Shown piece after piece: positions 2,327-38,497 of a stretch of 64,000 nucleotides of DNA. The position numbers were made by a program, and so were the translations under genes. The stretch is taken from positions 6,373-70,372 of the forward strand of contig CAZSPD010000001.1 of the NCBI GenBank assembly GCA_964608765.1. The letters are read 5' to 3'. The DNA comes from Candidatus Woesearchaeota archaeon. Its GTDB lineage: Archaea; Nanobdellota; Nanobdellia; Pacearchaeales; GW2011-AR1. Numbering within the stretch: position 1 is the first letter of the stretch; the number at the start of each line of letters is the position of its first letter. A model generated the notes under the pieces. The model searched no databases. It was given only the letters and a program-made list of their open reading frames with translations, and had not been told where the DNA came from.

Positions 2327-2650
2327 ATGAATGAATTAAAGAGGATGAAAGAATTAGCTATTTCATTTATTGATAAAGAAAAATACAAAAAAATCAATAA
2401 AATAAAAGATAAAGAAGAAAAACTACACATTTTTCAAAACACTCTGACGTCTGAGTTAAAAATAAAGCAACTTGACTTAGATTTAGAGATTAAACAAATA
2501 TCAGAAAGGCAAGTAAGAAACATTTTATCTATAAAATCCAATATAATTCATTCAAAAATACTTTTATTGAAAACAGACTTCAATGAGAAAGATTTTAAAA
2601 AAATCATTTCCTTACTAGATAAGCTAAAAACAGAGGTATCCCATGTTTAA
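2327..2650 (+). CDS. Small coiled-coil protein (hypothetical)
   Basis: Heptad-rich K/E/L composition. Its stop overlaps the next start by 8 bp (ATGTTTAA), consistent with translational coupling. Confidence 0.5.
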   Translation: MNELKRMKELAISFIDKEKYKKINKIKDKEEKLHIFQNTLTSELKIKQLDLDLEIKQISERQVRNILSIKSNIIHSKILLLKTDFNEKDFKKIISLLDKLKTEVSHV

Positions 2651-3500: not shown

Positions 3501-3544
3501 TTTAAAAAGAAAAGATTATAAAGTGCTTTTTATTTATTTTATCG

Positions 3545-4339: not shown

Positions 4340-4440
4340 TTCTTTTAGGGGTTTATAAAAAACATTTAAATATGCTTTTTAATAATCATTTTTATGGACT
4401 TTTGTTTATATACTATTTTAAACTTTGGGGCTAAAGAAAA

Positions 4441-5541: not shown

Positions 5542-5575
5542 AAAATCTTTTATAGTTATAATTCATTTTTAGACT

Positions 5576-7009: not shown

Positions 7010-7249
7010 ATGGTTAAAAGTAAGATTAATCGTACGATTAATCGCAAAAAAGAGGATGTTTTGGAGTTAGGAATAATTGCTTCTTTGTCTAATTCTATTA
7101 CTCCCAAATCTACTCAAGAAATTGCAGATGAGATGAATAAACCTTGGCATTCTGTTCAAACACGCTGCTTAAGGCTCCAATTAAATAACAAGCTAATAGG
7201 GTTTAGAGTTGGAAGAATAAACCTTTGGCAGATAAAAAAGAGAAAATGA
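7010..7249 (+). CDS. Small putative winged-helix DNA-binding protein
   Basis: 79 aa, basic, with an HTH-like segment (TQEIADEMNKPWHSVQTRCLRL). Its stop overlaps the giant gene start as ATGA at 7246-7249. Confidence 0.45.
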   Translation: MVKSKINRTINRKKEDVLELGIIASLSNSITPKSTQEIADEMNKPWHSVQTRCLRLQLNNKLIGFRVGRINLWQIKKRK

Positions 7250-23059: not shown

Positions 23060-23839
23060 GTGATGATTAACAAATTAAGTAAATTATTCCTAGTAACAAT
23101 TGTTTTAGGAATATTCTTGTTTGGATTTGTAGCAGCTGTTGAGCCATTTGGTGCTAATGTTACTGCAGTAGATACGTCTAGGTCTGACCCTTTGAATTAT
23201 CCTGCGGGAACTCACGAAGCTTGGGCAGGAAATGTAACTGAACTAACAATAGAGGGAGTTTCAGTAACTCAGTCTTGGCAAGGTTATTATGGTAATGTTT
23301 CAGGTACAATAATCTTAGCAGATAGTGATGAATATAGAATGTATGATTGGTCTCTCGCTAACCCGGAAGGTGAAGTGTACGCATCTCCATCTGGTTCTAT
23401 TTCGTGGGCTGACGTGCAATGTTACAGTAAAGATTTGGATAGTGTTTTAGGTGATGCATATGGGATAGCAGTTGATGATGTAGATAGAGTAAGTAATACT
23501 TTCTCAGTTGGAGGTACCCACGAAAAGGGAGGGGGTTTTGTTCACGACACTTTTTATACTGCTAATATAGAATTTGCTACTGGAACATGTGCAAGCACAC
23601 ATTTATTTACAGCAGGTGGAGTAGTAACATCAGGAACTTTTCAAGAGGTGTTGTTAGAAGATGCAGTTACAACGGATGGTGATGAACACGTAATTTTCGT
23701 ATCTATTTTAGATGAAGAAAGGCCTGATGGTTTCAATGGAAAACAAAGTATATACAACTTCCAAATGCTTGTCCTAGAAGATGGGCATACGACCAATGCA
23801 ATTCATACTACCTATTACTTCTGGGTAGAGTTAGAATAA
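23060..23839 (+). CDS. Secreted protein, paralog of 3545..4339 with the C-terminal YYFWVELE motif
   Basis: Signal peptide followed by AAVEPFGANV. The core SWQGYYGNVSGTIILADSDEYRMYDWSLA and the C-terminus FQMLVLEDGH...TYYFWVELE match the family. A Shine-Dalgarno AGGAGGT lies 10 nt upstream of the ATG at 23063; the track's first Met is a GTG. Confidence 0.7.
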   Translation: MMINKLSKLFLVTIVLGIFLFGFVAAVEPFGANVTAVDTSRSDPLNYPAGTHEAWAGNVTELTIEGVSVTQSWQGYYGNVSGTIILADSDEYRMYDWSLANPEGEVYASPSGSISWADVQCYSKDLDSVLGDAYGIAVDDVDRVSNTFSVGGTHEKGGGFVHDTFYTANIEFATGTCASTHLFTAGGVVTSGTFQEVLLEDAVTTDGDEHVIFVSILDEERPDGFNGKQSIYNFQMLVLEDGHTTNAIHTTYYFWVELE

Positions 23840-23917
23840 AATTTCATTTTTTATTTTTATATTTTTTTTAAGGAGTAAAGCAAAAGCGAATGAGGGGGAA
23901 AAAGAAAAACAAAAAAT

Positions 23918-24661
23918 ATGCACAAAAAAGAGAAAAAGATTATTCTATCTGGAATTTTACTAATCGGAGTTTTTTTAACTCTAATATTCATATTTTCAAA
24001 TGAATTAGTTTCTGCAGATCCTGAAGGTCCGAGTAGTGTTATTTCAGTTTGGAATAGTACTAAAAATGCAACTTCTTCTGCAATGGTTAATATTTCAGGA
24101 GGACAGATTGCAGCATTAAACCTCACTATTTCTTCTCAAAATACTCACTGGAAAGCATTTGTAGGATGGGTAAGTGGAGCTTTTACATTAGATGATGCTT
24201 CTGGTTCTACAATTTACGATTGGAAATTAAGTACTACAACAGGTAGAGTTTACACTACTAGAGACAGTTCAACAGTAGAGTGGAATTTACTTCAGTGTGC
24301 AAATACTGAAACGAACCTTGAAGCTGAAAATGTTGCCATGTTCCATAATAGAACTTCAGATAACATTACAGCAACTTTTAGTCATCCTGGAACACATAGT
24401 GCTTTTTGGGTTGCAGGGAGAAATATTGGTGCAAACACTTGTCCTACTTTAAACACATATGTTAATGATTTAAGCCAAGATGATGACTTTGAAGAAATGG
24501 CACTCTATGATGGCACCAGTATAATTTATGCCACAATCTTAGAAGATAATTTAGTAGGTTACGATGGCCAGCCCTATGATTTCCAGATGCTAGTTCCAGA
24601 GAATGGTTCTCAGGGTTTCACAGGTGCAACCCCGTATTACCTCTATGTGGAGCTAGACTAA
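23918..24661 (+). CDS. Secreted protein, more divergent paralog of the same family (C-terminal PYYLYVELD)
   Basis: Signal peptide. The segment WVSGAFTLDDASGSTIYDWKLS aligns with the YGNVSGTIIL..MYDWSLA core. The C-terminus is FQMLVPENGSQGFTGATPYYLYVELD. Confidence 0.65.
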   Translation: MHKKEKKIILSGILLIGVFLTLIFIFSNELVSADPEGPSSVISVWNSTKNATSSAMVNISGGQIAALNLTISSQNTHWKAFVGWVSGAFTLDDASGSTIYDWKLSTTTGRVYTTRDSSTVEWNLLQCANTETNLEAENVAMFHNRTSDNITATFSHPGTHSAFWVAGRNIGANTCPTLNTYVNDLSQDDDFEEMALYDGTSIIYATILEDNLVGYDGQPYDFQMLVPENGSQGFTGATPYYLYVELD

Positions 24662-24662
24662 G

Positions 24663-25649
24663 ATGGAAATAAAAAAAAGAAATAGCTTAATCGCTTTTTT
24701 TGTACTTTTGGAGATTTTTTTATTTGTAATATTCTTTTCTTTTTTTCCTCAAGGGGTCTTTGCAGGAGTAGGGGAAAACGTTACTGTAACAACACTTTTG
24801 TCTATTGGAAACGCATTTCCAGAAGTATTGAATGTAACAATTCAAAATAATGAATCAAGTATTACTCTTGTTTTAAATGATACTCGAGAAATTTTTTGTA
24901 CAGGATTAGTTCGAGATTATAATGGGTGGGAAGATATTAATCATGCTACGGCCGTGTTTTTCCATCCTGGAAATTCAACTTATGAGGGTACAGATGATAA
25001 TAATCACCATTACACAAATCACTCTTGTGATATAATTCAAGATGGAATTTACACTGCAATAGTTAATTGTACATTTGATATTTGGTATTATGCTAATCCA
25101 GGAACAACAACTAATGCTTGGAATTGTACAATAAGAGTAAATGACTCTTTAAATAAAGAAGCACTTGGTAGTGGAAGGATTGCTGTTTCACAATTATTAG
25201 GATTAGGAGTACCTGATTTTATAGACTATGGTGAAGTTAATGCTTCAGAAGTTTCTTTAGAGGTTCCTTCAGATGTAATTAATTATGGGAATGTTATGTT
25301 TAATTTATCATTAAATGGGTATGGATTCGTTCTAGGAGATGGTAATGCTATGAATTGCACTTTAGGAGCAATAGGGAATATTTCAATTCAACACGAGAAA
25401 TACAATTTAACAAATAGTAATCCAGGAGTTATAGATTTGGCTCAAGCTAATGCAAATTACACTAATCTAACTTCTAGTTTAGTAGTCCCTGCAGCTGCAA
25501 TAAAGAAATTTATGCTTGCACCTAGACAAGACGATGTGTCCAATGATGCAATTAAACCAGTTTACTGGAGAATTTTTGTTCCATCTGGAGTTGCAGGAAC
25601 TTGCCAAGGAAATATTATCTTTGGGGCAACAACAGCTAGAGGAAATTAA
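24663..25649 (+). CDS. Secreted, heavily N-sequon-decorated protein (hypothetical), translationally coupled to the upstream paralog
   Basis: Signal peptide (LIAFFVLLEIFLFVIFFSFF) and more than 20 N-x-S/T sequons. Its start lies 2 nt after the upstream stop. Confidence 0.55.
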   Translation: MEIKKRNSLIAFFVLLEIFLFVIFFSFFPQGVFAGVGENVTVTTLLSIGNAFPEVLNVTIQNNESSITLVLNDTREIFCTGLVRDYNGWEDINHATAVFFHPGNSTYEGTDDNNHHYTNHSCDIIQDGIYTAIVNCTFDIWYYANPGTTTNAWNCTIRVNDSLNKEALGSGRIAVSQLLGLGVPDFIDYGEVNASEVSLEVPSDVINYGNVMFNLSLNGYGFVLGDGNAMNCTLGAIGNISIQHEKYNLTNSNPGVIDLAQANANYTNLTSSLVVPAAAIKKFMLAPRQDDVSNDAIKPVYWRIFVPSGVAGTCQGNIIFGATTARGN

Positions 25650-25886: not shown

Positions 25887-26720
25887 ATGAATAAAGAGGA
25901 TTTTTTAAAAAAACTTGAAATAGAATTAAAGATATCTAAAAATTCAGGTTACACCATTAGAAATTATTTAGACTGCAATAGAAGGTTTTTAGAATACACA
26001 AAAAAAAATACCCAAGATATCACACAAGATGATGTTAAACTTTATCTTGTAGAAAATTTAAGCGAGTATTCATCATCATCTTTGATTGTATTTCTTTCAG
26101 CTTTAAAATACTCATTTTCAAATATTTTACACAAAGATATCACCTTGAATATTAAACGCCCAAAAAGAGAAAAGAGGATACCTTCTGTTTTAACTAAAGA
26201 AGAAATAAAGAATTTAATTGATTCAATAGCTTCCCAAAAATCTAAACTTATGGTATCAATGATGTATGCATGCGGGTTTAGAGTTTCAGAATTAATTAAT
26301 CTTAAAATAGATGATTTAGATTTTCAAGAAAAAGTTGGGAATATTAGACAAGGGAAAGGAAAAAAAGATAGAATATTCAATATTCCAGAATTTTTATTAG
26401 AGGATATTATCTCACACTCAGAAAAACAAAAAAAACAAAAAAAACACTACCTTTTTACTGGTCCAAAAGGAAAATTATCTGAGAGAAATTTGCAGAAGAT
26501 AATATCGGGTGCAGCAAAACGTGCAGGAATAAATAAAAATGTACACTGCCACACTCTAAGACATAGTTTTGCAACACACCTTTTAGAAAATGGAGTGGAT
26601 ATAAGGAAAATACAAGAATTATTAGGACACAGTGATTTGTCAACAACTCAAATTTACACTCATATTTCAAAAGAAGAACTTAAAAAAATAAAATCCCCTT
26701 TAGATGAGGTAATGAAATAA
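25887..26720 (+). CDS. xerA: Tyrosine site-specific recombinase (XerA/XerCD-like integrase)
   Basis: Canonical C-terminal catalytic motifs HTLRHSFATHLLENGVDIRKIQELLGHSDLSTTQIYTHI (R..H..R..Y), plus an N-terminal SAM-like core-binding domain. The 277-aa size is typical of archaeal XerA. Confidence 0.85.
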   Translation: MNKEDFLKKLEIELKISKNSGYTIRNYLDCNRRFLEYTKKNTQDITQDDVKLYLVENLSEYSSSSLIVFLSALKYSFSNILHKDITLNIKRPKREKRIPSVLTKEEIKNLIDSIASQKSKLMVSMMYACGFRVSELINLKIDDLDFQEKVGNIRQGKGKKDRIFNIPEFLLEDIISHSEKQKKQKKHYLFTGPKGKLSERNLQKIISGAAKRAGINKNVHCHTLRHSFATHLLENGVDIRKIQELLGHSDLSTTQIYTHISKEELKKIKSPLDEVMK

Positions 26721-26721
26721 A

Positions 26722-27141
26722 ATGAAATGTCCAAAATGTGGCCACACTTTTGAAATAGATGAGACTTCTGCTGAAAATAGAGGAAAATCCCAGAAAAAAG
26801 GAATGATAAAAAAATTTTATGAAGGAAAGCATGTTTCAAGAGCTCCTTTTGGTTATGAATGGGATTTAAAATTAAAATTACTTGTTCCTGCTAAAAACTC
26901 TAGGGAAGTTGAAGAGATATTTGAGGAGTTTTTAAAACCAGATGTAACTCTTTCAAGTCTTGCACAAAAACATAAACTTTCTGTAAATGGATTAAAAAAG
27001 GTTTTAAGAAATTTTGTGTATGTTGGAAAAGTTATGTTTGAAGGGCAACTTAGAGAAGGCAAACACACTCCATTAGTTTCTACAATTCTATTTAATCATG
27101 TTCAAGATAAATTAGAAAAACTCAAGATAAAAAAAAGCTAA
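26722..27141 (+). CDS. Zn-ribbon plus serine-recombinase-type Recombinase domain (PF07508-like) protein that lacks a resolvase catalytic domain
   Basis: N-terminal CPKCGHTF zinc ribbon. The segment APFGYEWD...LVP...EEIFEEF...LSSLA..H...NGLKKVLRNFVYVGKV matches the hallmark pattern of the recombinase domain (PFGY..LvidE..VrriF..g.Sl..IA..Ln..G....G..W....V..IL.N..Y.G). Its start is 1 nt after the xerA stop. Confidence 0.5.
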   Translation: MKCPKCGHTFEIDETSAENRGKSQKKGMIKKFYEGKHVSRAPFGYEWDLKLKLLVPAKNSREVEEIFEEFLKPDVTLSSLAQKHKLSVNGLKKVLRNFVYVGKVMFEGQLREGKHTPLVSTILFNHVQDKLEKLKIKKS

Positions 27142-28485: not shown

Positions 28486-28874
28486 TTTGATAAATGCTCT
28501 ACTTTAATATGTTTTATTTCCTCCTTTTTATCCAATGAAATAGATTCCATGTCTTTTAGTTCTTGAGGCACACCTTTATAGCATATTATTCTTTTAAATG
28601 CCTCTTTTCCTCTTCCCCTCCTATGATCAGGAAGCATGCCTCTTATCGCTCTCTTCACTATTCTTTCACTTGACCTTGAAACTTTAGGTCCTATTTGCCT
28701 TGTTCCAACTCTACTTCTTTTTTGAAGAAATGCTTTTTCTGTAAATTCTTTATTTCCTGTTATAATAACCTTTTCACAATTAATTATTCTTATCTCTTCA
28801 CCTTTAAGAGACTCTTTAGCAACAAAACTAGCTAATCTTCCCAAAGCAGTATTTTCCCCATTAATTATCTTCAT
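28482..28874 (-). CDS. rpl13: 50S ribosomal protein L13 (uL13)
   Basis: MKIINGENTALGRLASFVAKESLKGEEIRIINCEKVIITGNK matches the uL13 N-terminal region. Confidence 0.9.
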   Translation of the reverse strand: MKIINGENTALGRLASFVAKESLKGEEIRIINCEKVIITGNKEFTEKAFLQKRSRVGTRQIGPKVSRSSERIVKRAIRGMLPDHRRGRGKEAFKRIICYKGVPQELKDMESISLDKKEEIKHIKVEHLSK

Positions 28875-29242
28875 TTTTTTAGTATCTTTATTCCTTTTCC
28901 ATTAGGATTTGATTTAATTTCGTCATGAATATATGATATTTGGCATTTTGAACTTAATAACTTTTCTTTAGCTTTATCTGAAAAATTTAATGCAATTATT
29001 TTAACTTTTTTATTTAATTCACCTTGAGAAAGAACTTTTCCTGGAATAAGTATTACCTCTCCTTCTTTTGATTGTTTATCTATATCATCAAGGTTCATGC
29101 ATATTCTCTTTCTTTTCGGAGTAGACAACATCCCAGCTACTGCAATCCATGCTTCTTGTTTTTTTGCACTATTAATTGTTTCAATTAATTCTGTATTGCT
29201 TTTTTTCTCTGTTTGTTTTGAGATTTTTGTTTTTGATTTCAT
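28871..29242 (-). CDS. rpl18e: 50S ribosomal protein L18e
   Basis: Sits upstream of rpl13-rps9 in the conserved archaeal order. The basic, ~120-aa sequence with a WIAVAGMLSTPKRKR segment is consistent with eL18. Confidence 0.8.
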   Translation of the reverse strand: MKSKTKISKQTEKKSNTELIETINSAKKQEAWIAVAGMLSTPKRKRICMNLDDIDKQSKEGEVILIPGKVLSQGELNKKVKIIALNFSDKAKEKLLSSKCQISYIHDEIKSNPNGKGIKILKK

Positions 29243-29410
29243 TTTTATTTATTCAATGAACAACAAACTAGTAAAGTTTAGAAATTAACTCTACTATCGC
29301 TTGCGCTCGCAGACAAATTGGTTAATTTTATTGGATTTATAAATTATTCGGTTCACAGTTAATTTGTTTAATTGAGTTATTTTAACAATCCGAACAATTT
29401 TCTTTTTTTA

Positions 29411-29494
29411 TGTGGGTGCTAGGATTCGAACCTAGGAAAGCACTAAGCTAAGAGATTTTGAGTCTCTCCCGTTTGACCGCTCCGGCACACCCAC
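29411..29494 (-). tRNA. tRNA-Leu (anticodon CAA), type II with a long variable arm
   Basis: Reverse complement folds as acceptor GUGGGUG/CACCCAC, anticodon stem AGAGA/UCUCU, loop CUCAAAA (anticodon CAA), a long variable arm, and T-arm CUAGG-UUCGAAU-CCUAG, with discriminator A. Confidence 0.8.
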
Positions 29495-29604
29495 ATTTAC
29501 CACATAAAATTAAAATTCTATAAAAACCTTTATTTTAATTTGATGTAATTGTACAGTAGGAACAAAATAAAAAGGTTTATAAATATTACAGCTAGTCTAT
29601 AATC

Positions 29605-30060
29605 ATGAACCTAAAAAAAATTAACTTAAATTCACTAAAAGAACTTGAAAAACCTGGAATATCTCCTTTTTCAGAGAGTAAAGCATTTGATATGATAGGT
29701 CAAGAGAGAATAATTTCTTTAAAAAAAGCTATTTTTGAGATAAAGCAACTTATTGAAGAAAGAAAGCAATTGAGCTTAGGTTTCATAAATGAAGGGGAAG
29801 CAATAAAATCTGAAATAAGTAATCTAATACTCGCAAATGAAAGCACAATTAGAGCGCTCGGGCAAAATGAGGCTCTTATTGAAAAAAATGCTTTAAGAAA
29901 TAAAAAAATTGAAATTTCTGAACTACAATTAAATGAGAAAATTGATTGCTGGAAAGACATAGCCCTTCTAAAAAAGGAGCTTAGAGTATATGAGAAAGAA
30001 TTAAGTGAAAAAGAAAGCAGAGTTAAGGAATTAAATAATATTTTAGAAGGAGAAGATTAA
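29605..30060 (+). CDS. Coiled-coil protein (hypothetical), first gene of an antisense operon
   Basis: E/K/L-rich heptads. It is followed by two genes at 1-bp spacing. Confidence 0.5.
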   Translation: MNLKKINLNSLKELEKPGISPFSESKAFDMIGQERIISLKKAIFEIKQLIEERKQLSLGFINEGEAIKSEISNLILANESTIRALGQNEALIEKNALRNKKIEISELQLNEKIDCWKDIALLKKELRVYEKELSEKESRVKELNNILEGED

Positions 30061-30061
30061 A

Positions 30062-30397
30062 ATGAAAACTCTAATAAAAACCCCTGATTTTTACCTTCAA
30101 AAAGAGTTAGCAGATTCTTATTTATGGGAACTTGATTTTCAAGAAAAAATTATTGACAAATCTACAAAATACAATTCAGAAGACTTCCTAGAAAAAGCAA
30201 TAGGGCTCTATAAGAACATCTTTAGTTTAAAGGAAGGAGATTCTTATCTAGAGTATGTTTGCGGACATCTTGGACTCAATAAACAATCTATCCTTAAAAC
30301 TCTTGGAAAATTATACTCTGAACAATTATCTCTTTTAAGAAAAATAGGTATAAAAAATGCTTCTTATCCAGATAAACTAGAGGATTTAATAATTTAA
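30062..30397 (+). CDS. Hypothetical protein, 111 aa
   Basis: ORF tightly packed between the coiled-coil gene and the ATPase gene. Confidence 0.45.
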   Translation: MKTLIKTPDFYLQKELADSYLWELDFQEKIIDKSTKYNSEDFLEKAIGLYKNIFSLKEGDSYLEYVCGHLGLNKQSILKTLGKLYSEQLSLLRKIGIKNASYPDKLEDLII

Positions 30398-30398
30398 A

Positions 30399-32426
30399 GT
30401 GAATTACAATAAACAAATTTCAGTAGAAGAAATAAGTTCAAAACTTAAACCGATACTTGGAAGGAGAATAGATGAACTTTATTTTAGATATTCTGTTTCT
30501 GAATCGCAAGAAGAAAGAATTCAAATTATTCAAATTTTAAGTGCATTATATCAAAAATATTTGGGGCAATTTTTAGACAAGAAAGTATTACTTGAGCCCC
30601 CTAAACAAACAGATGTTTCAGGAGAATATGAACTTTCAAAAGTAATTTATGCAGAAAAAGAATTATTTCCTTTTGCATTAAGAGAAGAAGATTGGCCTAG
30701 ACACGTTTGTATAAGTGGAATGAGTGGTTCAGGAAAAACTACTTTTGCATTTAATATTCTTAAGGAATTTATTAAAAAAGATAAACCTTTTTTAGTGTTT
30801 GATTGGAAAAAGAGCTTTAGACCGTTAATTAATCATGATCCCAATGTAATGTGTTTTACAGTTGGAAATAACTCTATAAGTAATTTATTTAAAACAAATA
30901 TTAATATACCTCCAAAAGGGGTTTCACCTAAAGAGTGGATTAACACACTATGTGATTTAATAACTGAAAGTTTTTGTGTTTCATTCGGAGTTCATAAAAC
31001 ACTCTTAGAGACTCTTGATGAAGTTTTTGAGGGATGGGGTGTTTACAAAGGTTCTACACACTATCCAAATTGGCAACATATTAAGAAGATGCTTGAGATA
31101 AAGTCTAGAGAAGCAAGAGGAAGAGAAGCAGCTTGGTATGAAAGCGCCCTTAGGATAGCTACAGTTTTGACTTTTGGAGATTTTGGAAAAGTTATTAATT
31201 ATGAAGGTAAGAAGAGCATATCTATTGAAGAGATATTTGATAAGAAAATAATTTTTGAACTAAACTCACTTAGTAATATAGAAAAGAAGTTTTTTTCAGA
31301 ATATGTTTTATCATATATTTTTAAATTAAAAAAATCTAACTCTGAAAAAACAATAAATGAATTTAATCACGCAATTTTAGTGGATGAAGCCCATAATATT
31401 TTCCTTAAAGAAAAAACGCATTTTGTGTCAGAGTCTATTACAGATGTAATATATAGAGAGATGAGGGAGTATGGAACTTGTTTAATATGTTTGGACCAAC
31501 ATGTATCTAAATTAAGTGATACAGTAAAAGGAAATAGTGCGTGCCATGTTGCATTTCAACAACAATTACCTCAAGATATATACGATATAAGTTCTATAAT
31601 GCAATTATCTGAAAAAAGAGATGTTTTTACACATCTTCCAGTAGGATATGCAATTGTTAAGCTTTCTGAAAGACACACTCGTCCTTTTTTAATAAAAGCC
31701 CCATACATTGATTTAAAAAACTCTTCTATTCCAGATAATAAAATTTCGACTAAAATGGATTATATAGCAAGGATAGCAGAAGTTGAGAAGGATGATTTAG
31801 AATTTAAAAAAGCATTGATCGATGTAGCTACACCTTCAACAATAAATTCAATATCTATGGTATCTAATATCCAACCCAAATCAACTACTCCAAAACTAGA
31901 CAAGGATCTGTCTTCAAATAAACAATCCAGAAAAGAAGCTAAGCTAACAAGTACACAAGAAGTCCTTTATGAATTTATACAAAAACAAGTTAAAGTGAAT
32001 GGACTTCAAATAAAAGAAGCAGAGAGAACATTAGAAAAAGGACTTTCAGAGGGTCTTTACAAAGAATTAGATATACTTCTTGCAACAAACTATTTCTTTG
32101 AAAAAGAAATGAGTAATAAATATTATTTAGATTTAGAATTTAAAGAGAACAAGGACTATTGCATAGATGATACATTTAGTCAAAAAAATATTTTAAATAA
32201 TAATATTGTAGACAAGGTTCAATACTCTGCTGATGAGCAAGCACTTTTAAGCTTCTTATACAAAAATCCTAATCATTATTTAAGTACAGTTGAATTATAT
32301 AAACATGCAAGTGTTTCTTCAAGAAAAGGAAATATTGCTAAAAATAATTTATTACTCAAAGGAAAAATTAAAATACATGAAGAAAGAAGTAATACGGGAT
32401 GGAAAAAAATAATAAGATTAATATAA
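30399..32426 (+). CDS. Soluble HerA/FtsK-superfamily (DUF87-like) P-loop ATPase with a ~230-aa C-terminal extension (possible winged-helix domains); GTG start
   Basis: Walker A HVCISGMSGSGKTTFAFN is followed by FLVFDWKKSF (HerA-type hhhhD.kgEy) and Walker B ILVDEAHNIF. No TM segments. The C-terminal region is basic and helix-rich. Confidence 0.7.
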   Translation: MNYNKQISVEEISSKLKPILGRRIDELYFRYSVSESQEERIQIIQILSALYQKYLGQFLDKKVLLEPPKQTDVSGEYELSKVIYAEKELFPFALREEDWPRHVCISGMSGSGKTTFAFNILKEFIKKDKPFLVFDWKKSFRPLINHDPNVMCFTVGNNSISNLFKTNINIPPKGVSPKEWINTLCDLITESFCVSFGVHKTLLETLDEVFEGWGVYKGSTHYPNWQHIKKMLEIKSREARGREAAWYESALRIATVLTFGDFGKVINYEGKKSISIEEIFDKKIIFELNSLSNIEKKFFSEYVLSYIFKLKKSNSEKTINEFNHAILVDEAHNIFLKEKTHFVSESITDVIYREMREYGTCLICLDQHVSKLSDTVKGNSACHVAFQQQLPQDIYDISSIMQLSEKRDVFTHLPVGYAIVKLSERHTRPFLIKAPYIDLKNSSIPDNKISTKMDYIARIAEVEKDDLEFKKALIDVATPSTINSISMVSNIQPKSTTPKLDKDLSSNKQSRKEAKLTSTQEVLYEFIQKQVKVNGLQIKEAERTLEKGLSEGLYKELDILLATNYFFEKEMSNKYYLDLEFKENKDYCIDDTFSQKNILNNNIVDKVQYSADEQALLSFLYKNPNHYLSTVELYKHASVSSRKGNIAKNNLLLKGKIKIHEERSNTGWKKIIRLI

Positions 32427-32759
32427 GTTAATTACACTATTGCCCTTAGTCAAAATCATATTCACACACATCGAACCAAGAAATAACCCTTCATTTCAAA
32501 TATACTGAAATCGAAAATAAAGAAGATTTCATATAAATTTGATTTGAATTTACACCTTGTTGAACCAAACAACGTGAAATACCTTGTAATGTCACTCAGA
32601 CACAAACCAAGAAACTGAAAACACAAAATAAAATAAAATTACTCAAAATTTACTTAGTGGATATCTTGTTCTTTACCTGAAATATCCTGAAAAACCCTGT
32701 AATAACCTCGATAAAAGCTTCTAATATATTCTAGCTAATAACTAATAATAACAATAATC

Positions 32760-33056
32760 ATGAAAACATTTTTTATAAATTTACTCAAAGTAATGATGTA
32801 TTCTTCATTTACTTTAAGTGTTCTATTTGTCCTTCTTTTTCCTTTTTTAGAAATAGAAGCAACAGAAACTACTCCTTGCTACGAGTCTCCCATTCAATTT
32901 TGGGATACTTTAAAAAACATAATAGATCATCTTTTTAATTCTCTTAAAATAGATTTTAGAGTAACCCAATTAGAGATTTTTATATTTTTACTTGCCTTTT
33001 CTTTAGCCTTTGGGTTTCTTTTTAAGTGGATATTAAGAAGACTTGAAAATATGTAA
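32760..33056 (+). CDS. Small membrane protein (hypothetical)
   Basis: Two hydrophobic helices in a 98-aa ORF. Confidence 0.4.
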   Translation: MKTFFINLLKVMMYSSFTLSVLFVLLFPFLEIEATETTPCYESPIQFWDTLKNIIDHLFNSLKIDFRVTQLEIFIFLLAFSLAFGFLFKWILRRLENM

Positions 33057-33274
33057 AATTAATTTAATACTAACTAAAATTTTAACTTATGGAAAACGAG
33101 AAAGATTATTATTCTAAAAAATCTCCTAAAAAAGATTTGTCTGAGTTTATTGTCCCCTCTTTTCTCGCCCACACAAACCGTATAGGTAAACAGGAGAGAA
33201 AAACATCATCTAAAGCAACAAAGCTTTCAAAGAAAAAACCAAATGACCAATGATTTTAAGAAAGGGCCTTTGTT

Positions 33275-33694
33275 ATGGCTGAGATTAAAGATATTTCTCA
33301 CGATGAGATTATTCTCATCCCTGCAAAAAGCAGCTTTGAAGATTTAGATTACCCCTTTTCCCGCTATAAAGGAAATTTTTGCGGAGATAATGGAGAGTGT
33401 ACAACAACAGCGCACATAATATTGTTTAATTGTGCAGATGTAGCCAGAATTCCTTTTTTAGTTAATTTAGAGATTCAATGTCTAGAAAAATACATTTCAG
33501 AGAACCCTTACATCGAAGAAATTAGATTCCAGCTTGAATTTTTCCTAGCTTTAAAAGAGTATTTGATTGAAAGTTCTTTACAATATTCTCCTTCAGATAA
33601 TCTTATCCAGTTTATTTCTGAAAAATGCGTTCCCTCCATAAAAAAAGAAAATGTTATTTTTTTAAAGGGAGTTAAATGCTTAACAGGAGAATAA
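33275..33694 (+). CDS. Hypothetical protein, 139 aa
   Basis: ORF followed by a 12-bp inverted repeat. Confidence 0.4.
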   Translation: MAEIKDISHDEIILIPAKSSFEDLDYPFSRYKGNFCGDNGECTTTAHIILFNCADVARIPFLVNLEIQCLEKYISENPYIEEIRFQLEFFLALKEYLIESSLQYSPSDNLIQFISEKCVPSIKKENVIFLKGVKCLTGE

Positions 33695-33703
33695 TTATTT
33701 TCT

Positions 33704-33759
33704 GAAGGCTTCTGACTGAACTGTTTTTTCCCTATTTGATTTTCTTTTCAGAAGCCTTC
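33704..33759 (+). terminator. Inverted repeat GAAGGCTTCTGA ... TCAGAAGCCTTC (12-bp arms, ~32-nt loop) with an internal T6 run
   Basis: Perfect reverse-complement arms read directly, located 10 nt after the stop at 33694. Confidence 0.4.
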
Positions 33760-33905
33760 TTTAAATGAAATTTCATTACTAAATGATAAATAACTAAAAT
33801 AAGTAACATTCAAAAAAAAGGGAAATTAAAACAGTTCAAAAATGGGGTGAACTCCCACATGATTCTTGAGAATTTTTAATTGTTTAATTTTTAAATCTTA
33901 AAAAA

Positions 33906-34433
33906 ATGAAAAAGATTTTATTTTTAGCAGTGATTTTTGCTCTTGCTCTGGGAGCAGGCTGCAAAAGGAAAGTTGAACAAGCTCCTCCACCTCCACCTCC
34001 TACGCCTGTTGAAAAACAGAGTCAGCAGGAAATGATGAAGAGCTTTGTTCAGATTGTCTCCAATCTCAAACTAGGAGAAGTAATCCACTTTAAGGTAGAT
34101 AGGGAGAAATTCATCTCAGATTACTCTGCATTTGATGTCTCACTCTTTCCTACTGAGTTCTTTACTTCATCAGAAGAAAAGTATCTTTTGAAGTATATGT
34201 TTCCATCTGTTGTTTGGAGATGGGACGAGTTTCAGCTTCAGGTTTTAAATCTCGAGGAATATTATATTCACAGAGAAGATGGAGGGAAAGTTTGGATATT
34301 GAAAGAATCTCCAAAAGGAACACCTCCATTCAAAAATATTCCAACTGTTTTAGCTGAAGCAAGAGACGGAAACTTCTGGGTTCTTGATCAGAATGGAAAT
34401 GAGATGCCTCTCCGAGCTAATTTCGGAAAGTAA
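33906..34433 (+). CDS. Putative lipoprotein with a Pro-rich linker
   Basis: Signal peptide ending LALGAGC (lipobox-like Cys), followed by APPPPPPTPVEKQ. Confidence 0.5.
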   Translation: MKKILFLAVIFALALGAGCKRKVEQAPPPPPPTPVEKQSQQEMMKSFVQIVSNLKLGEVIHFKVDREKFISDYSAFDVSLFPTEFFTSSEEKYLLKYMFPSVVWRWDEFQLQVLNLEEYYIHREDGGKVWILKESPKGTPPFKNIPTVLAEARDGNFWVLDQNGNEMPLRANFGK

Positions 34434-34470
34434 TCTTATCTATCTAATTCTAACATTGACTCGTAAAATT

Positions 34471-34505
34471 GCCTGATAGAGTATAAATAAATCAGGCTTT
34501 TTTTT
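34471..34505. terminator. Hairpin GCCTGAT-(13 nt)-ATCAGGC followed by T8, between convergent genes
   Basis: 7-bp perfect stem plus an oligo-T tract read directly. Archaeal termination at T-tracts is established. Confidence 0.5.
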
Positions 34506-34577
34506 GATTAAACATATGAAAATAAATTCATATATTATTACATCCAAAAATACTTTTAGTCATAAAACACCTAAAAT

Positions 34578-35285
34578 CTATTTTCCTAGTTTTTTAGAAA
34601 TATCAACTAAGTCTTTTTTTAAACATTCAATTGATTTAGTAAATATTGCCTTAGGGTCAATATGCCCAAATGATTCTAATTCAATTATCATCTCTTTATT
34701 TGGTTTTACTTCAATTTTTTTTCCTAATTTTTCTGCAACACCGTCACAAATATCTGTTATTTCTCTTTCTTTATTATCTATTAAAATATATTTATCTCCT
34801 TTTTGTTTTATTTCAGTATCAGGTAATAGGCTTTTTATTTTTTCAGCAGTTTCTTTATCAACATAGATTTCAGAAGCCTCTCTATAATTTAATAGTCCAG
34901 GAGTAAATTTAGCGTGGTCTTGTCCTTTACCCATTTTAATATTAGCTACAATTTCTATTTCTTGTTCCTCGTCAAGTATAGTAAGAGGTATTCTATCATA
35001 AGCCACTTCAAAATCCCCTTTTAATAACTCTGAGTAAACTGTTCCTTTGTTCTTAGTATTTAATTTTAATTTACCCTCTTTTTTTGAATTTTGTTTTAAA
35101 GGAACTAACCCTAATCTATGAGCGAGTGTTTCATCATATAAAGGAGAATCATTTTTAGATATTTCAACTTCATCAATTGCAGCAATTAATATTTGTCCAA
35201 CATATCTTCTTATTGAATTAATTAAACTATCCTCTATTTCTGCTTTGAAAATATACTTATCTTTTGTTTTATTTATTGTTTCCAT
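34578..35285 (-). CDS. rpoD: DNA-directed RNA polymerase subunit D (Rpo3/RpoD)
   Basis: N-terminal SLINSIRRYVGQILIAAIDEVEI and ETLAHRLGLVPL are typical of the Rpb3/RpoD dimerisation domain. It lies immediately downstream of rps11, as in the conserved archaeal cluster. Confidence 0.8.
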   Translation of the reverse strand: METINKTKDKYIFKAEIEDSLINSIRRYVGQILIAAIDEVEISKNDSPLYDETLAHRLGLVPLKQNSKKEGKLKLNTKNKGTVYSELLKGDFEVAYDRIPLTILDEEQEIEIVANIKMGKGQDHAKFTPGLLNYREASEIYVDKETAEKIKSLLPDTEIKQKGDKYILIDNKEREITDICDGVAEKLGKKIEVKPNKEMIIELESFGHIDPKAIFTKSIECLKKDLVDISKKLGK

Positions 35286-38299: not shown

Positions 38300-38497
38300 A
38301 TGATAATTCCAGTTAGATGCTTCTCATGCGGAAAACCAGTAGGGCACTTATGGGAAGAATATAAGAAACGTGTAGCTCAAGGAGAAAATTCTAAAAAAGT
38401 CCTTGATGAATTAGGGGTAGAAAGATTTTGTTGCAGAGCAATCTTTTTAGGACAAGAAGATCATTTAGAGTTGGTTGCTAAATTTAAAAAATCCTAG
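38300..38497 (+). CDS. rpoN: DNA-directed RNA polymerase subunit N (Rpo10/RpoN)
   Basis: MIIPVRCFSCGKPVGHLWEEY...LGVERFCCRAIFLGQEDHLELV matches Rpb10/RpoN, including the CFSCGK and RFCCR motifs. Confidence 0.85.
   Translation: MIIPVRCFSCGKPVGHLWEEYKKRVAQGENSKKVLDELGVERFCCRAIFLGQEDHLELVAKFKKS

What the first reader, a model, noticed from the sequence alone, without database searches (positions are those of the whole stretch)
29243..34577. A ~5-kb antisense gene block with a second DUF87 ATPase splits the conserved rps13-rps4-rps11-rpoD | rpl18e-rpl13-rps9 operon next to tRNA-Leu(CAA)
In archaea rpoD is normally followed directly by rpl18e-rpl13-rps9-rpoN. Here six plus-strand genes and a minus-strand tRNA-Leu sit between rpoD (34578, minus) and rpl18e (29242, minus). 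The six genes are: coiled-coil 151 aa, a 111-aa protein, a 675-aa soluble HerA/FtsK-like ATPase with C-terminal wHTH-like domains, a small membrane protein, a 139-aa protein and a lipoprotein. In addition, rpoN lies about 9 kb away on the opposite strand. Insertion into one of the most conserved archaeal operons at a tRNA suggests an integrated element or a defence or conjugation-related island. ATPase plus coiled-coil cassettes recur in anti-phage systems and in DNA-translocation machinery.
Basis: partly seen in the sequence, partly recalled or inferred. Interest (0 to 1): 0.65.

Follow-up and report, generated by a model that had tools for sequence, protein, structure and literature searches.

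The report
Ancient DNA-motor cassette splitting ribosomal operon
The block that splits this archaeon's ribosomal-protein/RNA-polymerase operon is not a recently inserted mobile element: it is an old arrangement shared by a whole lineage, made of a highly conserved DNA-pump-like ATPase with a helical partner protein, a previously unnoticed array of short phased DNA repeats, and a fast-changing set of surface-protein genes.

Summary
Between rpl18e (28871-29242, -) and rpoD (34578-35285, -) lie tRNA-Leu(CAA) and seven (not six) plus-strand ORFs, including a soluble 675-aa DUF87 ATPase.

- 43 related species-level loci (ATPase 54-93% identical) have the same order: S9-L13-L18e | tRNA-Leu | partner-ATPase ... 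| rpoD.
- ATPase identity tracks ribosomal-protein identity (r=0.84; means 61% and 62%).
- There is no att repeat, no compositional deviation and no integrase in the block.
- The tRNA belongs to the canonical archaeal cluster.

A sister clade carries the same cassette beside L35Ae-L10e instead.

The cassette is a coiled-coil partner (divergent DUF8104) plus a HerA/FtsK-clade ATPase with a C-terminal winged helix. More distant homologues in bacteria and Lokiarchaeia add a nuclease-like domain and sit beside Orc/Cdc6 and integrase genes, matching predicted "HerA/FtsK capture" defence neighbourhoods. The DPANN version therefore looks domesticated.

Two features are new. A ~340-nt spacer after the ATPase carries direct TGAAATACC copies spaced in multiples of ~10.6 bp. 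Downstream lies a hypervariable, co-directional array of exported-protein genes.

Best guess: a sequence-guided dsDNA translocase with a housekeeping role.

The parts
28871..29242 (-). rpl18e, first gene of the L18e-L13-S9 half of the split cluster
   Evidence: Pfam Ribosomal_L27A/L18. Found upstream of and divergent from the cassette in 43 of 43 group A loci.
29410..29495 (-). tRNA-Leu(CAA), a native resident of the rpoD-L18e junction rather than an integration target
   Evidence: ARAGORN and Rfam tRNA at 56.6 bits. Present at the same junction in 39 of 40 group A loci, inverted in 9. The canonical cluster includes tRNA(Leu) (PMC10833476). No partial copy elsewhere in the block.
29577..29586 (+). 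TATA-like box TTTATAAATA about 24 nt before the ATG of the first cassette gene; implies a leaderless operon mRNA (inferred)
   Evidence: Read directly from the sequence. Not tested.
29605..30060 (+). 151-aa helical partner protein (divergent DUF8104-like), always upstream of the ATPase
   Evidence: Found in 79 of about 85 DPANN loci. Profile-profile match to the ~167-aa partner of the distant family: 97.9% probability, E 4.9e-13, 125 columns. Partners in L088 and L170 hit Pfam DUF8104.
30062..30397 (+). 111-aa fast-evolving accessory gene wedged between partner and ATPase, with 1-nt gaps on both sides
   Evidence: 80% identical in L001 but only 31-41% in loci where the ATPase is 61-71% identical. 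Absent in 34 loci, where the partner abuts the ATPase directly. No family hits.
30399..32426 (+). 675-aa soluble HerA/FtsK-clade ATPase. Layout: N-terminal helical domain, P-loop core with an inserted 4-helix bundle, disordered linkers, a 3-helix domain and a C-terminal winged helix
   Evidence: Walker A 107-114, Walker B D329/E330, R353/R356 and sensor-1 Q367 are invariant in 36 sequences. AlphaFold pLDDT 78.6. Foldseek top hits are DndH-C 7es4, HerA 4d2i and VirB4 4ag6. The winged helix matches MarR/PadR folds. 209 GTDB species carry a relative.
32427..32759 (+). conserved non-coding spacer, G-poor on the + strand, carrying direct TGAAATACC-type repeats
   Evidence: The spacer exceeds 250 nt in 64 of 75 loci, median 341 nt. 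GAAATACC is enriched 46-fold: 134 of 208 + strand copies in 1.4 Mb lie within 650 nt of the ATPase stop. Copy spacings fall on multiples of 10.6 bp, Rayleigh R=0.80.
32548..32610 (+). two-hairpin element, with an exact GAAATACC at 32576-32583 between the hairpins; preceded by a TATA-like CATATAAAT at 32530-32538
   Evidence: The covariance model finds it only downstream of the ATPase on the + strand. Helix 1 is invariant; helix 2 has compensatory changes in 6 of 8 pairs. No Rfam family matches.
32675..32708 (+). tandem 10-nt units ACCTGAAATA x3.4, just upstream of the first array gene
   Evidence: Tandem Repeats Finder. The same tandem block aligns in 9 loci.
32760..33056 (+). 98-aa membrane protein, first gene of the variable array
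   Evidence: KD19 maximum 2.27. Homologues in 6 loci only.
33089..33253 (+).
   Evidence: Conserved in 6 loci. Homology with the closest relative L001 ends exactly at its 3' end.
33275..33694 (+). 139-aa protein of unknown function, variable-array member
   Evidence: Homologues in 5 loci. L001 has a different lipoprotein gene at this position.
33906..34433 (+). 175-aa lipoprotein, last array gene
   Evidence: Signal peptide plus LGAGC lipobox. Homologues in 11 loci.
34578..35285 (-). rpoD, last gene of the S13-S4-S11-rpoD half of the split cluster
   Evidence: Pfam RNA_pol_A_bac and RNA_pol_L. Found on the minus strand downstream of the array in all 19 loci that reach it.
38300..38497 (+). rpoN, displaced from its canonical place after S9
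   Evidence: The translation MIIPVRCFSCGKPVG.... Same position and strand in L002 and L003.

Best explanation
The block is a fixed, vertically inherited feature of one clade of Pacearchaeota-like DPANN archaea. It is not a recent insertion.

In the ancestor of that clade a chromosomal cassette landed, in reverse orientation, between rpoD and the native tRNA-Leu of the S13-S4-S11-rpoD-tRNA(Leu)-L18e-L13-S9 cluster. The cassette has four parts: (1) a helical DUF8104-like partner; (2) in this genome, a fast-evolving 111-aa accessory protein; (3) a soluble HerA/FtsK-clade ATPase ending in a winged helix; (4) a ~340-nt non-coding region with direct TGAAATACC repeats phased at about one DNA turn. 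Behind it lies a co-directional array of mostly exported or membrane proteins that turns over rapidly.

The cassette descends from the two-gene module (partner plus ATPase-wHTH-nuclease) found in Orc/Cdc6- and integrase-linked mobile or defence neighbourhoods. In DPANN it has lost the nuclease domain and the Orc/Cdc6 partner, and it now evolves as slowly as ribosomal proteins.

Inferred mechanism: the ATPase forms a hexameric ring that pumps double-stranded DNA. Its winged helix loads or orients it on the phased repeat array next to its own gene, as TraB does on clt and FtsK on KOPS. The helical partner scaffolds or tethers it. The role is a housekeeping DNA transaction: chromosome segregation or resolution, or DNA transfer across a cell-cell contact.

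Shown: the anatomy, the conservation, the homologies and the repeat phasing. Inferred: ring formation, DNA pumping, winged helix-repeat recognition and the cellular role.
For: Lineage-wide arrangement:
- L001-L003, L005 and L006 share it.
- 43 of 43 loci that have L18e show the divergent L18e | cassette layout, and 19 reach rpoD on the minus strand.
- tRNA-Leu(CAA) is at the junction in 39 of 40 loci.

Vertical inheritance:
- ATPase identity against S9/L13/L18e identity gives r=0.84 (n=41), with means of 61.0% and 61.6%.
- Two clean clades: 73% identity within each, 64% between them.
- The sister clade has the cassette in another housekeeping context, L35Ae-L10e-RNA methyltransferase.
- Further DPANN clades also place it among housekeeping genes.

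Active HerA/FtsK-clade ATPase:
- Walker A and B, arginine finger and sensor-1 Q are invariant.
- The fold matches DndH-C, HerA and VirB4.
- The P-loop core contains a 4-helix insertion, as described for one HerA/FtsK version in PMC10853773.
- The winged helix is confirmed and its recognition-helix residues are invariant.

Origin from a mobile or defence-type module:
- Homologues 33-40% identical occur in Planctomycetota, Thermodesulfobacteriota, Acidobacteria and Lokiarchaeia.
- They carry an extra C-terminal PD-(D/E)xK-like motif.
- 61 of 80 loci have an overlapping ~167-aa partner, 21 of 80 have Orc/Cdc6 downstream, and 9 have an integrase.
- The partner is homologous to the window's 151-aa protein.

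cis element.

Analogy: TraB recognises direct 8-bp repeats in clt through its C terminus, and it is followed by diverse, translationally coupled spd genes (PMC4447253).
Against: - No experiment or expression data exist for any family member.
- Binding of the winged helix to the repeats is inferred only from adjacency and co-conservation.
- The phasing statistic is inflated by relatedness among the loci.
- The same 8-mer also occurs in the 5' coding part of the partner gene, where it encodes EIP. That could be an operator or a coincidence.
- The spacer also holds a hairpin element with covariation, which fits an RNA as well as a DNA site.
- The rpoD-L18e junction of the sister clade and of outgroups could not be retrieved, so the direction of the change rests on the canonical archaeal order from the literature.
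- How many genomes of the lineage lack the gene was not measured.
- A nuclease-less but still defensive role is not excluded.
Confidence: 0.55

Rival explanations
1. Recent integration of a mobile element, defence island or conjugative island at tRNA-Leu.
For: The block interrupts a highly conserved operon next to a tRNA. A tyrosine recombinase lies 3 kb away. Distant ATPase homologues sit beside integrases. One relative (L014) does carry a restriction-modification pair plus a transposase inserted between L18e and the tRNA.
Against: 43 species-level relatives share the arrangement and diverge in step. No att repeat. Composition is typical of the window. The block lies on the 5' side of the tRNA. 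The recombinase scores as XerA and is syntenic in the relatives. No relatives on viral contigs. The tRNA is native to the cluster.
Confidence: 0.03
2. The cassette is still an anti-invader system: a vertically retained, nuclease-less HerA/FtsK 'capture' module whose effector is supplied in trans, for example by the fast-evolving 111-aa protein or by array genes.
For: The closest relatives outside DPANN match predicted counter-invader neighbourhoods containing Orc/Cdc6, HerA/FtsK, wHTH and REase. PADLOC gives weak mad8 and HerA hits. The accessory gene between partner and ATPase evolves fast.
Against: Sequence conservation at ribosomal-protein level and fixed housekeeping synteny are unusual for defence genes. 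No nuclease domain and no Orc/Cdc6 gene lie in or next to the DPANN cassettes. No PADLOC system model is met.
Confidence: 0.17
3. The ATPase is an ATP-dependent regulator, or an assembly or secretion motor, for the adjacent array of surface proteins. The repeat array would then be an upstream activating site for the array promoter, comparable to EssC with its variable downstream effectors.
For: A co-directional array rich in exported proteins follows the cassette in both genomic contexts: 52% of ORFs have an N-terminal hydrophobic segment against 13% in the flanks, and 22 against 2 are lipobox-like. The tandem repeats sit 50-100 nt upstream of the first array gene. The C-terminal domain has a MarR-like fold.
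Against: Array proteins carry ordinary Sec or lipoprotein signals and need no dedicated motor. The ATPase is soluble and no membrane partner is conserved. Array content is almost entirely non-homologous between loci, with 593 of 661 clusters singletons, whereas the ATPase is nearly invariant. The HerA/FtsK clade is a family of DNA pumps.
Confidence: 0.15
4. The spacer encodes a small structured RNA or a 3' UTR element, and the repeats act at RNA level, for example as a protein sponge, with no link to the ATPase's DNA binding.
For: A TATA-like box precedes a two-hairpin element that shows compensatory changes in helix 2. The element is strand-specific.
Against: Repeat spacings mix 10- and 11-nt units and follow a 10.6-nt period, which points to the face of a DNA helix. 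Helix 1 is invariant, so it gives no evidence either way. The covariation counts come from a model-fitted alignment of 15 related sequences. No Rfam family matches.
Confidence: 0.1

Closest known systems
Orc/Cdc6-coupled HerA/FtsK-wHTH-REase 'HerA/FtsK capture' neighbourhoods (predicted counter-invader systems; PMC10853773)
   Same: HerA/FtsK-clade ATPase with a 4-helix bundle inserted in the P-loop core, followed by a winged helix. The window's ATPase is 33-40% identical to members of a family that has a C-terminal PD-(D/E)xK-like domain and Orc/Cdc6 and integrase neighbours. The small upstream partner is homologous.
   Different: The DPANN proteins end after the winged helix, with no nuclease. 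They have no Orc/Cdc6 neighbour. They are vertically inherited in housekeeping contexts and are as conserved as ribosomal proteins. They have acquired a long spacer with phased repeats that the distant family lacks, where the median gap is 77 nt.
Streptomyces TraB-clt-spd plasmid transfer module (PMC4447253)
   Same: An FtsK-like motor with a C-terminal winged-helix-type recognition domain. Direct 8-9-bp repeats next to the motor gene. A downstream, co-directional, translationally coupled set of small, diverse, often membrane proteins.
   Different: TraB is membrane-anchored and plasmid-borne and belongs to the FtsK/SpoIIIE branch. Here the ATPase is soluble and chromosomal, belongs to another HerA/FtsK branch, and has a coiled-coil partner. 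This is a functional analogy only; no binding or transfer has been shown.
FtsK/SpoIIIE with KOPS/SRS guidance
   Same: A ring-type dsDNA pump whose C-terminal winged helix reads short oriented DNA motifs. XerA is encoded about 3.5 kb away in this clade.
   Different: No membrane domain and no FtsK alpha or gamma domains. Pfam FtsK_SpoIIIE does not hit the window protein. The motif is clustered at one locus rather than dispersed and skewed along the chromosome: only 6 exact copies in 64 kb.
HerA-NurA end-resection helicase
   Same: Same ATPase clade; HerA 4d2i is the second-best structural match.
   Different: No NurA, Mre11 or Rad50 neighbours. An N-terminal helical domain replaces the HAS barrel. 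NCBIfam HerA models score 16-24 bits against cut-offs of 800.
CedD/VirD4-like and VirB4-like DNA transfer ATPases (PMC11823120, PMC11868833)
   Same: FtsK-HerA superfamily. Partial NCBIfam CedD match over the C-terminal half of the ATPase core. VirB4 is a structural match.
   Different: 59.6 bits against a cut-off of 600. No membrane anchor. No Ced, Ted or VirB genes in the neighbourhood.
tRNA-targeted genomic islands
   Same: Lies next to a tRNA gene; its distal half has variable gene content.
   Different: No integrase inside, no att repeats, on the wrong side of the tRNA, typical composition, and conserved across the clade.

Membership tests
Integrated mobile element / genomic island at a tRNA | Direct repeat (att) copying the tRNA 3' end at the far boundary | tested here: not met
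   No 12-20-mer of the tRNA (0-3 mismatches) occurs in 25-40 kb apart from the paralogous tRNA-Leu(AAG) gene. No matching repeat family. The block abuts the 5' end of the tRNA.
Integrated mobile element / genomic island at a tRNA | Presence/absence polymorphism among relatives (empty sites) | tested here: not met
   All 43 related loci that include L18e have the cassette at the junction. Junctions of the sister clade could not be fetched.
Integrated mobile element / genomic island at a tRNA | Own integrase or other mobility genes; atypical composition | tested here: not met
   No recombinase in 29.5-34.6 kb. The nearby recombinase passes the XerA equivalog cut-off and is syntenic. GC is 0.291 against 0.296, and tetranucleotide distance is at the 29th percentile.
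HerA/FtsK clade of P-loop ATPases | Walker A and B, arginine finger just upstream of strand 4, and glutamine sensor-1 at the end of strand 4 | tested here: met
   G107-T114, D329/E330, R353/R356 and Q367 are invariant in 36 sequences. These are the criteria stated in PMC10853773.
HerA/FtsK clade of P-loop ATPases | Fold similarity to solved members | tested here: met
   Foldseek probability 1.0 to DndH-C 7es4 (TM 0.74 by target length), HerA 4d2i and VirB4 4ag6. Profile hits to HerA chains.
HerA/FtsK clade of P-loop ATPases | Hexameric ring that translocates DNA | not testable with these tools
   Only monomer models could be made.
Orc/Cdc6-HerA/FtsK-REase-wHTH capture systems (PMC10853773) | HerA/FtsK domain with inserted 4-helix bundle, plus wHTH | tested here: met
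   Helices 177-192, 196-212, 225-238 and 242-258 lie between core strands. The C-terminal winged helix is confirmed.
Orc/Cdc6-HerA/FtsK-REase-wHTH capture systems (PMC10853773) | Active REase domain in the system | tested here: not met
   The protein ends after the winged helix. tblastn with 23 nuclease-domain sequences finds nothing in 86 DPANN loci or in the window.
Orc/Cdc6-HerA/FtsK-REase-wHTH capture systems (PMC10853773) | Linked Orc/Cdc6-family ATPase; mobile, patchy neighbourhoods | tested here: not met
   No Orc/Cdc6 next to any DPANN cassette. The neighbourhoods are conserved and housekeeping.
Known anti-phage systems (PADLOC-DB 2.0) | Component proteins match system models | tested here: not met
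   Only weak single-protein hits: mad8 at 41 bits and HerA models at 18-29 bits. The other five proteins have no hit.
CedD / VirD4-like coupling ATPase | NCBIfam equivalog score; membrane anchor; Ced/Ted or T4SS partners | tested here: not met
   59.6 bits against a cut-off of 600. KD19 maximum 1.09, so no TM segment. No such neighbours.
FtsK/SpoIIIE | N-terminal membrane domain, FtsK alpha/beta motor, gamma domain reading dispersed skewed motifs | tested here: not met
   No TM segment. No Pfam FtsK_SpoIIIE hit. The motif is clustered at one site.
TraB-clt type transfer module (functional analogy) | Motor with C-terminal DNA-recognition domain, and direct short repeats beside the motor gene | tested here: met
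   Winged helix. Direct TGAAATACC copies concentrated within 650 nt of the stop codon in 60 of 79 loci.
TraB-clt type transfer module (functional analogy) | Specific binding of the motor to the repeats, and DNA transfer between cells | not testable with these tools
   Requires biochemistry or genetics.
Canonical archaeal alpha/L18e ribosomal cluster | Contiguous S13-S4-S11-rpoD-(tRNA-Leu)-L18e-L13-S9-rpoN | tested here: not met
   Split by 5.1 kb between rpoD and tRNA-Leu. rpoN is moved to 38300-38497 on the opposite strand. Reference order from PMC10833476.

The most novel reading that the evidence does not exclude
Pacearchaeota-like DPANN archaea carry a previously undescribed, chromosomally fixed DNA-handling system, domesticated from a defence or mobile-element module. 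It consists of a soluble HerA/FtsK ring ATPase, a DUF8104 coiled-coil partner, and a dedicated cis site of helically phased TGAAATACC repeats read by the ATPase's winged helix. In effect it would be a new class of centromere-like or clt-like motor-plus-site pair. It would segregate the chromosome or move chromosomal DNA across the symbiont-host (or cell-cell) contact, and it would anchor a hypervariable surface-protein island.
Probability: 0.25. Interest if true: 0.8.

Novelty: new variant of a known kind. Interest (0 to 1): 0.55.

Why it matters
As an "insertion" the finding is ordinary: it is a lineage-specific rearrangement of a conserved operon.

What it uncovers is more useful. DPANN archaea have tiny genomes and unknown mechanisms of chromosome segregation and of exchange with their hosts. 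Here an uncharacterised ATPase-partner pair is as conserved as ribosomal proteins across at least 209 species-level genomes. It sits among translation genes. It derives from a defence or mobile-element-type module. It comes with a conserved, helically phased repeat array that provides a directly testable DNA target.

It also marks a reproducible hotspot where surface-protein genes turn over even between genomes whose ATPase proteins are 93% identical. That is relevant to host attachment and to strain diversification.

Tried and rejected
- att or direct repeats of the tRNA: none found.
- GC and tetranucleotide deviation of the block: none.
- PADLOC, Pfam and NCBIfam on all block proteins: only superfamily-level hits for the ATPase, nothing for the others.
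- Relatives on viral contigs: none.
- Sequence search of the PDB with the single protein: uninformative.
- Integron reading (XerA-like recombinase plus cassette array): rejected. The recombinase passes the XerA cut-off and is separated from the array by the S9-L13-L18e genes. No attC-like repeats recur between array genes, and the motif is confined to the first spacer.
- T7SS/EssC-like secretion of array proteins: judged unlikely because they carry Sec or lipoprotein signals.
- Separate nuclease or Orc/Cdc6 genes in DPANN loci: none.
- An equivalent repeat array in the distant bacterial and Loki family: none. Clades C and D (L170, L171) also lack the GAAATACC motif.
- Inteins in longer ATPase homologues: the extra length is linker only.
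- Rfam on the block: only the tRNA.
- The rpoD-L18e junction of the sister clade: not obtainable.
- Literature searches for this DPANN ATPase found no description.

Full report
**1. Observation**

The window has 29.6% G+C. Its closest relatives are metagenome-assembled DPANN archaea labelled Pacearchaeota, Woesearchaeota or Nanoarchaeota.

ORF listing and ARAGORN confirm the described layout:
- rpl18e 28871-29242 (-)
- tRNA-Leu(CAA) 29410-29495 (-)
- rpoD 34578-35285 (-), followed by S11, S4 and S13

Pfam confirms rpoD, L18e and a DUF87 domain in the 675-aa protein. That protein has no hydrophobic segment. The 98-aa protein has a TM segment, and the 175-aa protein has a signal peptide with a lipobox. 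rpoN is at 38300-38497 on the plus strand. The "first" DUF87 ATPase is the ORF at 8-2302. The canonical archaeal order is S13-S4-S11-rpoD-L18e-L13-S9-rpoN, and at least one genome has tRNA(Leu) between rpoD and L18e (PMC10833476). The operon really is split here. The tRNA, however, is a native member of the cluster, and the block lies on its 5' side.

**2. Is it an insertion?**

- No fragment of the tRNA recurs in 25-40 kb, apart from the paralogous tRNA-Leu(AAG) gene.
- G+C (0.291 against 0.296) and tetranucleotide composition (29th percentile of same-size windows) are typical.
- No block protein matches a PADLOC system beyond weak mad8 and HerA hits for the ATPase.
- No relative was found on viral contigs.

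The decisive result is comparative. The ATPase has full-length homologues at 55-93% identity in hundreds of protein clusters, and 209 GTDB species genomes encode a relative. Loci at 93%, 70%, 60%, 58% and 55% ATPase identity all show the order S9-L13-L18e(-) | partner-(x)-ATPase(+) ... rpoD-S11-S4-S13(-). They also share the same flanking XerA-like recombinase, the small Zn-ribbon/"Recombinase"-domain protein, the TM2/DUF2752/DUF4389 genes, and rpoN beyond L21e.

I mapped 22 window proteins onto 86 loci.
- 43 loci ("group A", ATPase 53.7-93% identical) carry L18e divergently upstream of the cassette.
- All 19 loci long enough to reach rpoD have it on the minus strand.
- tRNA-Leu(CAA) sits at the junction in 39 of 40 loci scanned and is inverted in nine.
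- ATPase identity tracks mean S9/L13/L18e identity (r=0.84, n=41), with equal means of 61.0% and 61.6%.

The nearby recombinase passes the NCBIfam XerA equivalog cut-off (241.9 against 220 bits), so it is the chromosomal dimer resolvase.

**3. A second context**

Eighteen loci with enough upstream sequence ("group B", ATPase 48.6-53.7% identical over the full length) have no L18e or rpoD within 10 kb. There the cassette follows L35Ae, L10e and an RMKL-like RNA methyltransferase, co-directionally. Over the conserved N-terminal 450 residues the two groups are reciprocal clades: 73% identity within each and 64% between them. More distant DPANN clades also place the partner-ATPase pair among housekeeping genes. 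L170 has it next to rpoL and AMMECR1. L171 has it among eIF5A, eRF1, L37ae, rpoP and prefoldin.

So the pair is a vertically inherited chromosomal module that has relocated a few times. In the ancestor of group A it landed between rpoD and tRNA-Leu. I could not retrieve the rpoD-L18e junction of group B, so the direction of the change rests on the canonical order.

**4. The ATPase and its partner**

A 36-sequence alignment shows very strong constraint over residues 1-440. Walker A (107-114), Walker B (D329/E330), R353/R356 and Q367 are all invariant. These are the arginine-finger and glutamine sensor-1 hallmarks of the HerA/FtsK clade as stated in PMC10853773.

The AlphaFold model (pLDDT 78.6) shows the following layout:
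- an N-terminal helical domain
- a beta-hairpin
- a P-loop core with a four-helix insertion (177-258)
- disordered linkers
- a three-helix domain (518-577)
- a helix-helix-helix-beta-beta domain (611-675)

Foldseek places the core nearest DndH-C (7es4), HerA (4d2i) and VirB4 (4ag6). A separate model of residues 512-675 matches MarR/PadR-type winged helices, and also ScpB, SSV1 F-93 and AspA, over about 66 residues at 1.6-2.5 Å. The recognition-helix region, S..RKGN..K..L, is invariant.

NCBIfam gives only sub-threshold hits: CedD at 59.6 bits against a cut-off of 600, and HerA_antiphage at 16 bits against 800.

The 151-aa upstream protein is present in 79 of about 85 loci. In 34 loci it abuts the ATPase directly. 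In the others a small, rapidly diverging gene, such as the window's 111-aa ORF, lies between them.

**5. Where the cassette comes from**

An exhaustive HMMER search finds 3063 representatives with E up to 0.001. Many are 650-700-aa proteins that are 28-40% identical over residues 8-455. Named members come from Planctomycetota, Thermodesulfobacteriota, Acidobacteria and Lokiarchaeia.

Their alignments continue past the winged helix into a PD-(D/E)xK-like motif...VD..A.K...A.E.ETGKSD. That motif has weak profile matches to Cas4 and AF1548.

In 83 such loci (80 of which carry the clustered ATPase ORF):
- 61 of the 80 have a ~167-aa gene overlapping the ATPase start
- 21 have an Orc1/Cdc6-family gene about 70 nt downstream
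- 9 have a tyrosine recombinase
- the flanks hold restriction-modification, nSTAND and AbiE genes

The ~167-aa partner is homologous to the window's 151-aa protein (hhalign 97.9%, E 4.9e-13). Partners in L088 and L170 hit Pfam DUF8104.

This matches the "HerA/FtsK capture" neighbourhoods predicted to be counter-invader systems. Those contain an Orc/Cdc6 ATPase, REase domains, a HerA/FtsK domain (in one version with an inserted 4-helix bundle) and a wHTH (PMC10853773).

The DPANN proteins lack the nuclease. No nuclease-domain or Orc/Cdc6 gene lies near any DPANN cassette. The DPANN version behaves like a domesticated core gene.

**6. A conserved cis element (new)**

In 64 of 75 loci from both groups the ATPase stop codon is followed by more than 250 nt without an ORF (median 341 nt). 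This stretch is G-poor on the coding strand. The distant family has a median gap of 77 nt.

The most widespread 8-mer in these spacers is GAAATACC (32 of 37 spacers).
- 134 of its 208 plus-strand copies in 1.4 Mb lie within 650 nt of the stop codon, a 46-fold enrichment and the highest of any frequent 8-mer.
- 60 of 79 loci have one to five exact copies.
- The extended consensus is TGAAATACC(T/C)T.
- Spacings between copies fall at 10-11, 21-23, 31-33, 41-43, 53-55, 63-65, 73-75, 83, 93-97, 106-107 and 116 nt, with one off-phase spacing at 133 nt.
- The best period is 10.6 nt with Rayleigh R=0.80. The nominal p-value is inflated by relatedness, but nothing falls between the in-phase spacing classes below 120 nt.

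In the window the copies are at 32480 (one mismatch), 32576 (exact) and 32679/32689/32699. The last three form a tandem 10-nt unit found independently by TRF at 32675-32708.

In the nearest sub-clade a ~63-nt element (window 32548-32610) precedes the tandem block. It consists of an invariant hairpin CACYTTGTTG...AAACAAWGTG, then GAAATACC, then a second hairpin with compensatory changes in 6 of 8 pairs. A TATA-like box lies upstream. A covariance model finds this element only downstream of the ATPase on the plus strand. Rfam has nothing there.

The same 8-mer also occurs near the 5' end of the partner gene in 25 cases, where it encodes EIP or EIPEIP. This could be an embedded operator or a coincidence of codon usage, and I leave it unexplained.

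A mixture of 10- and 11-nt units averaging one helical turn is what is expected of a protein-binding DNA array. The invariant winged helix encoded next to it is the obvious candidate reader, but that is inference.

**7. The distal half is a variable island**

Downstream of the spacer every locus has a co-directional run of genes, from 2.15 kb (this window, the shortest) to more than 10 kb. The 820 ORFs fall into 661 clusters, of which 593 are singletons.

In the 20 loci bounded by rpoD:
- 52% of 211 array ORFs have an N-terminal hydrophobic segment, against 13% of flank ORFs (odds ratio 7, p=6e-23). For the rest of the window the figure is 27%.
- 22 array ORFs are lipobox-like, against 2 in the flanks.

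Turnover is recent. L001 is 93% identical to the window at the DNA level through the spacer, the 98-aa gene and the 54-aa gene. Homology then stops abruptly at about 33250. There the window has the 139-aa gene, whereas L001 has a lipoprotein gene of a family that other relatives also carry at that place.

Because the array proteins carry ordinary export signals, a dedicated secretion role for the ATPase seems unlikely.

**8. Mechanism and rivals**

The best-supported reading is that the ATPase is a ring-forming dsDNA translocase of the HerA/FtsK clade. It would be guided to or oriented on the phased repeat array by its winged helix, and scaffolded by the helical partner. It has been retained for a housekeeping DNA transaction.

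The closest functional analogue is Streptomyces TraB. Its C terminus recognises direct 8-bp repeats in clt, and it is followed by diverse, translationally coupled spd genes (PMC4447253). FtsK with KOPS is a second analogue. Both are analogies, not memberships.

Rivals that remain open:
- a still-defensive, nuclease-less system
- a regulator of the adjacent surface-gene array, with the repeats acting as an upstream activating site
- an RNA-level role for the spacer

A recent integration is effectively excluded.

**9. Verdict**

The mobile-island interpretation is not supported for this genome, although the cassette's ancestry lies in defence or mobile-type modules. The locus is a new variant of a known kind: a HerA/FtsK motor with a winged helix. 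Three properties had not been described, as far as the literature searches show: ribosomal-protein-level conservation in a DPANN lineage, a dedicated phased repeat array, and an attached hypervariable surface-protein island. Interest is moderate at 0.55. The finding as posed is explained, but it exposes a testable candidate DNA-handling system in organisms whose cell biology is largely unknown.

Noticed in passing
window 8-2302, 2327-6967, 7225-22851, 23060-25649: A second locus built around a DUF87/HerA_C ATPase (8-2302, with an N-terminal CarboxypepD_reg-like domain). It is followed by several membrane or secreted proteins, a giant 5208-aa ORF, and three proteins with similar N-termini (...VEPFGA...). 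L001 and L002 have homologous genes upstream of XerA, so this locus is also syntenic. It may be a surface or attachment apparatus.
   Followed up: partly
window 25887-26720 and 26722-27141: XerA (above the NCBIfam equivalog cut-off) is followed, with a 1-nt gap, by a 139-aa Zn-ribbon protein that carries only the 'Recombinase' domain of large serine recombinases. The pair is conserved next to the S9 end of the operon in most group A loci. In L043 it lies inverted downstream of the ATPase.
   Followed up: partly
L005, L020, L021, L022, L024, L025, L030, L035, L065 (tRNA-Leu at the L18e-cassette junction): The junction tRNA-Leu(CAA) is on the opposite strand in nine group A loci, which indicates a small local inversion in one sub-clade. 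L033 lacks the tRNA altogether.
   Followed up: no
L014 4630-9310: One relative has about 4.7 kb inserted between L18e and the 3' end of tRNA-Leu: a putative restriction enzyme, a 359-aa N4/N6 DNA methyltransferase and a 300-aa transposase-like protein. This is a genuine lineage-specific insertion at this junction.
   Followed up: partly
L085 12720-13504; L061 16553-17355; L069 15546-18865: tRNA-like genes lie inside the variable arrays of some sister-clade loci. They include a suppressor-type tRNA (anticodon TTA) and several with odd anticodon loops. This is suggestive of virus- or element-derived cargo.
   Followed up: no
L080 12477-12911 and three paralogues: Four paralogous array proteins carry a bacterial-type prepilin N-methylation motif (Pfam N_methyl, GFTLVE...), which is unexpected in an archaeon.
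   Followed up: partly
L047 and L038 (record titles): Contigs carrying this archaeal cassette are filed under a 'Desulfobulbaceae bacterium' MAG and a 'bacterium' MAG. In L047 the cassette is flanked by the archaeal ribosomal proteins L35Ae and L10e. These are probably mis-binned DPANN contigs.
   Followed up: no
window 29646-29663 and the 5' ends of partner genes in 25 loci: The spacer motif GAAATACC recurs in the first ~25 codons of the partner gene, where it encodes EIP or EIPEIP. The window has the degenerate form GAAAAACCTGGAATATC. This could be an operator embedded in coding sequence or a codon-usage coincidence.
   Followed up: partly
window 32452-32468 and equivalent positions in other spacers: A second enriched motif, (T)CATATTCAC, enriched about 20- to 31-fold depending on the 8-mer, lies 25-40 nt after the ATPase stop codon in many loci.
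   Followed up: no
L171 11759-14457: In a more distant Woesearchaeota-like genome the ATPase is followed by 2.7 kb of 50% G+C sequence with no long ORF, no tandem repeats and no Rfam match.
   Followed up: partly
P0395 and P0396: Two paralogous ATPases of this family (54% identical to the P0133 query) are reported with the same longest contig (174 kb), so some DPANN genomes may carry two copies.
   Followed up: no
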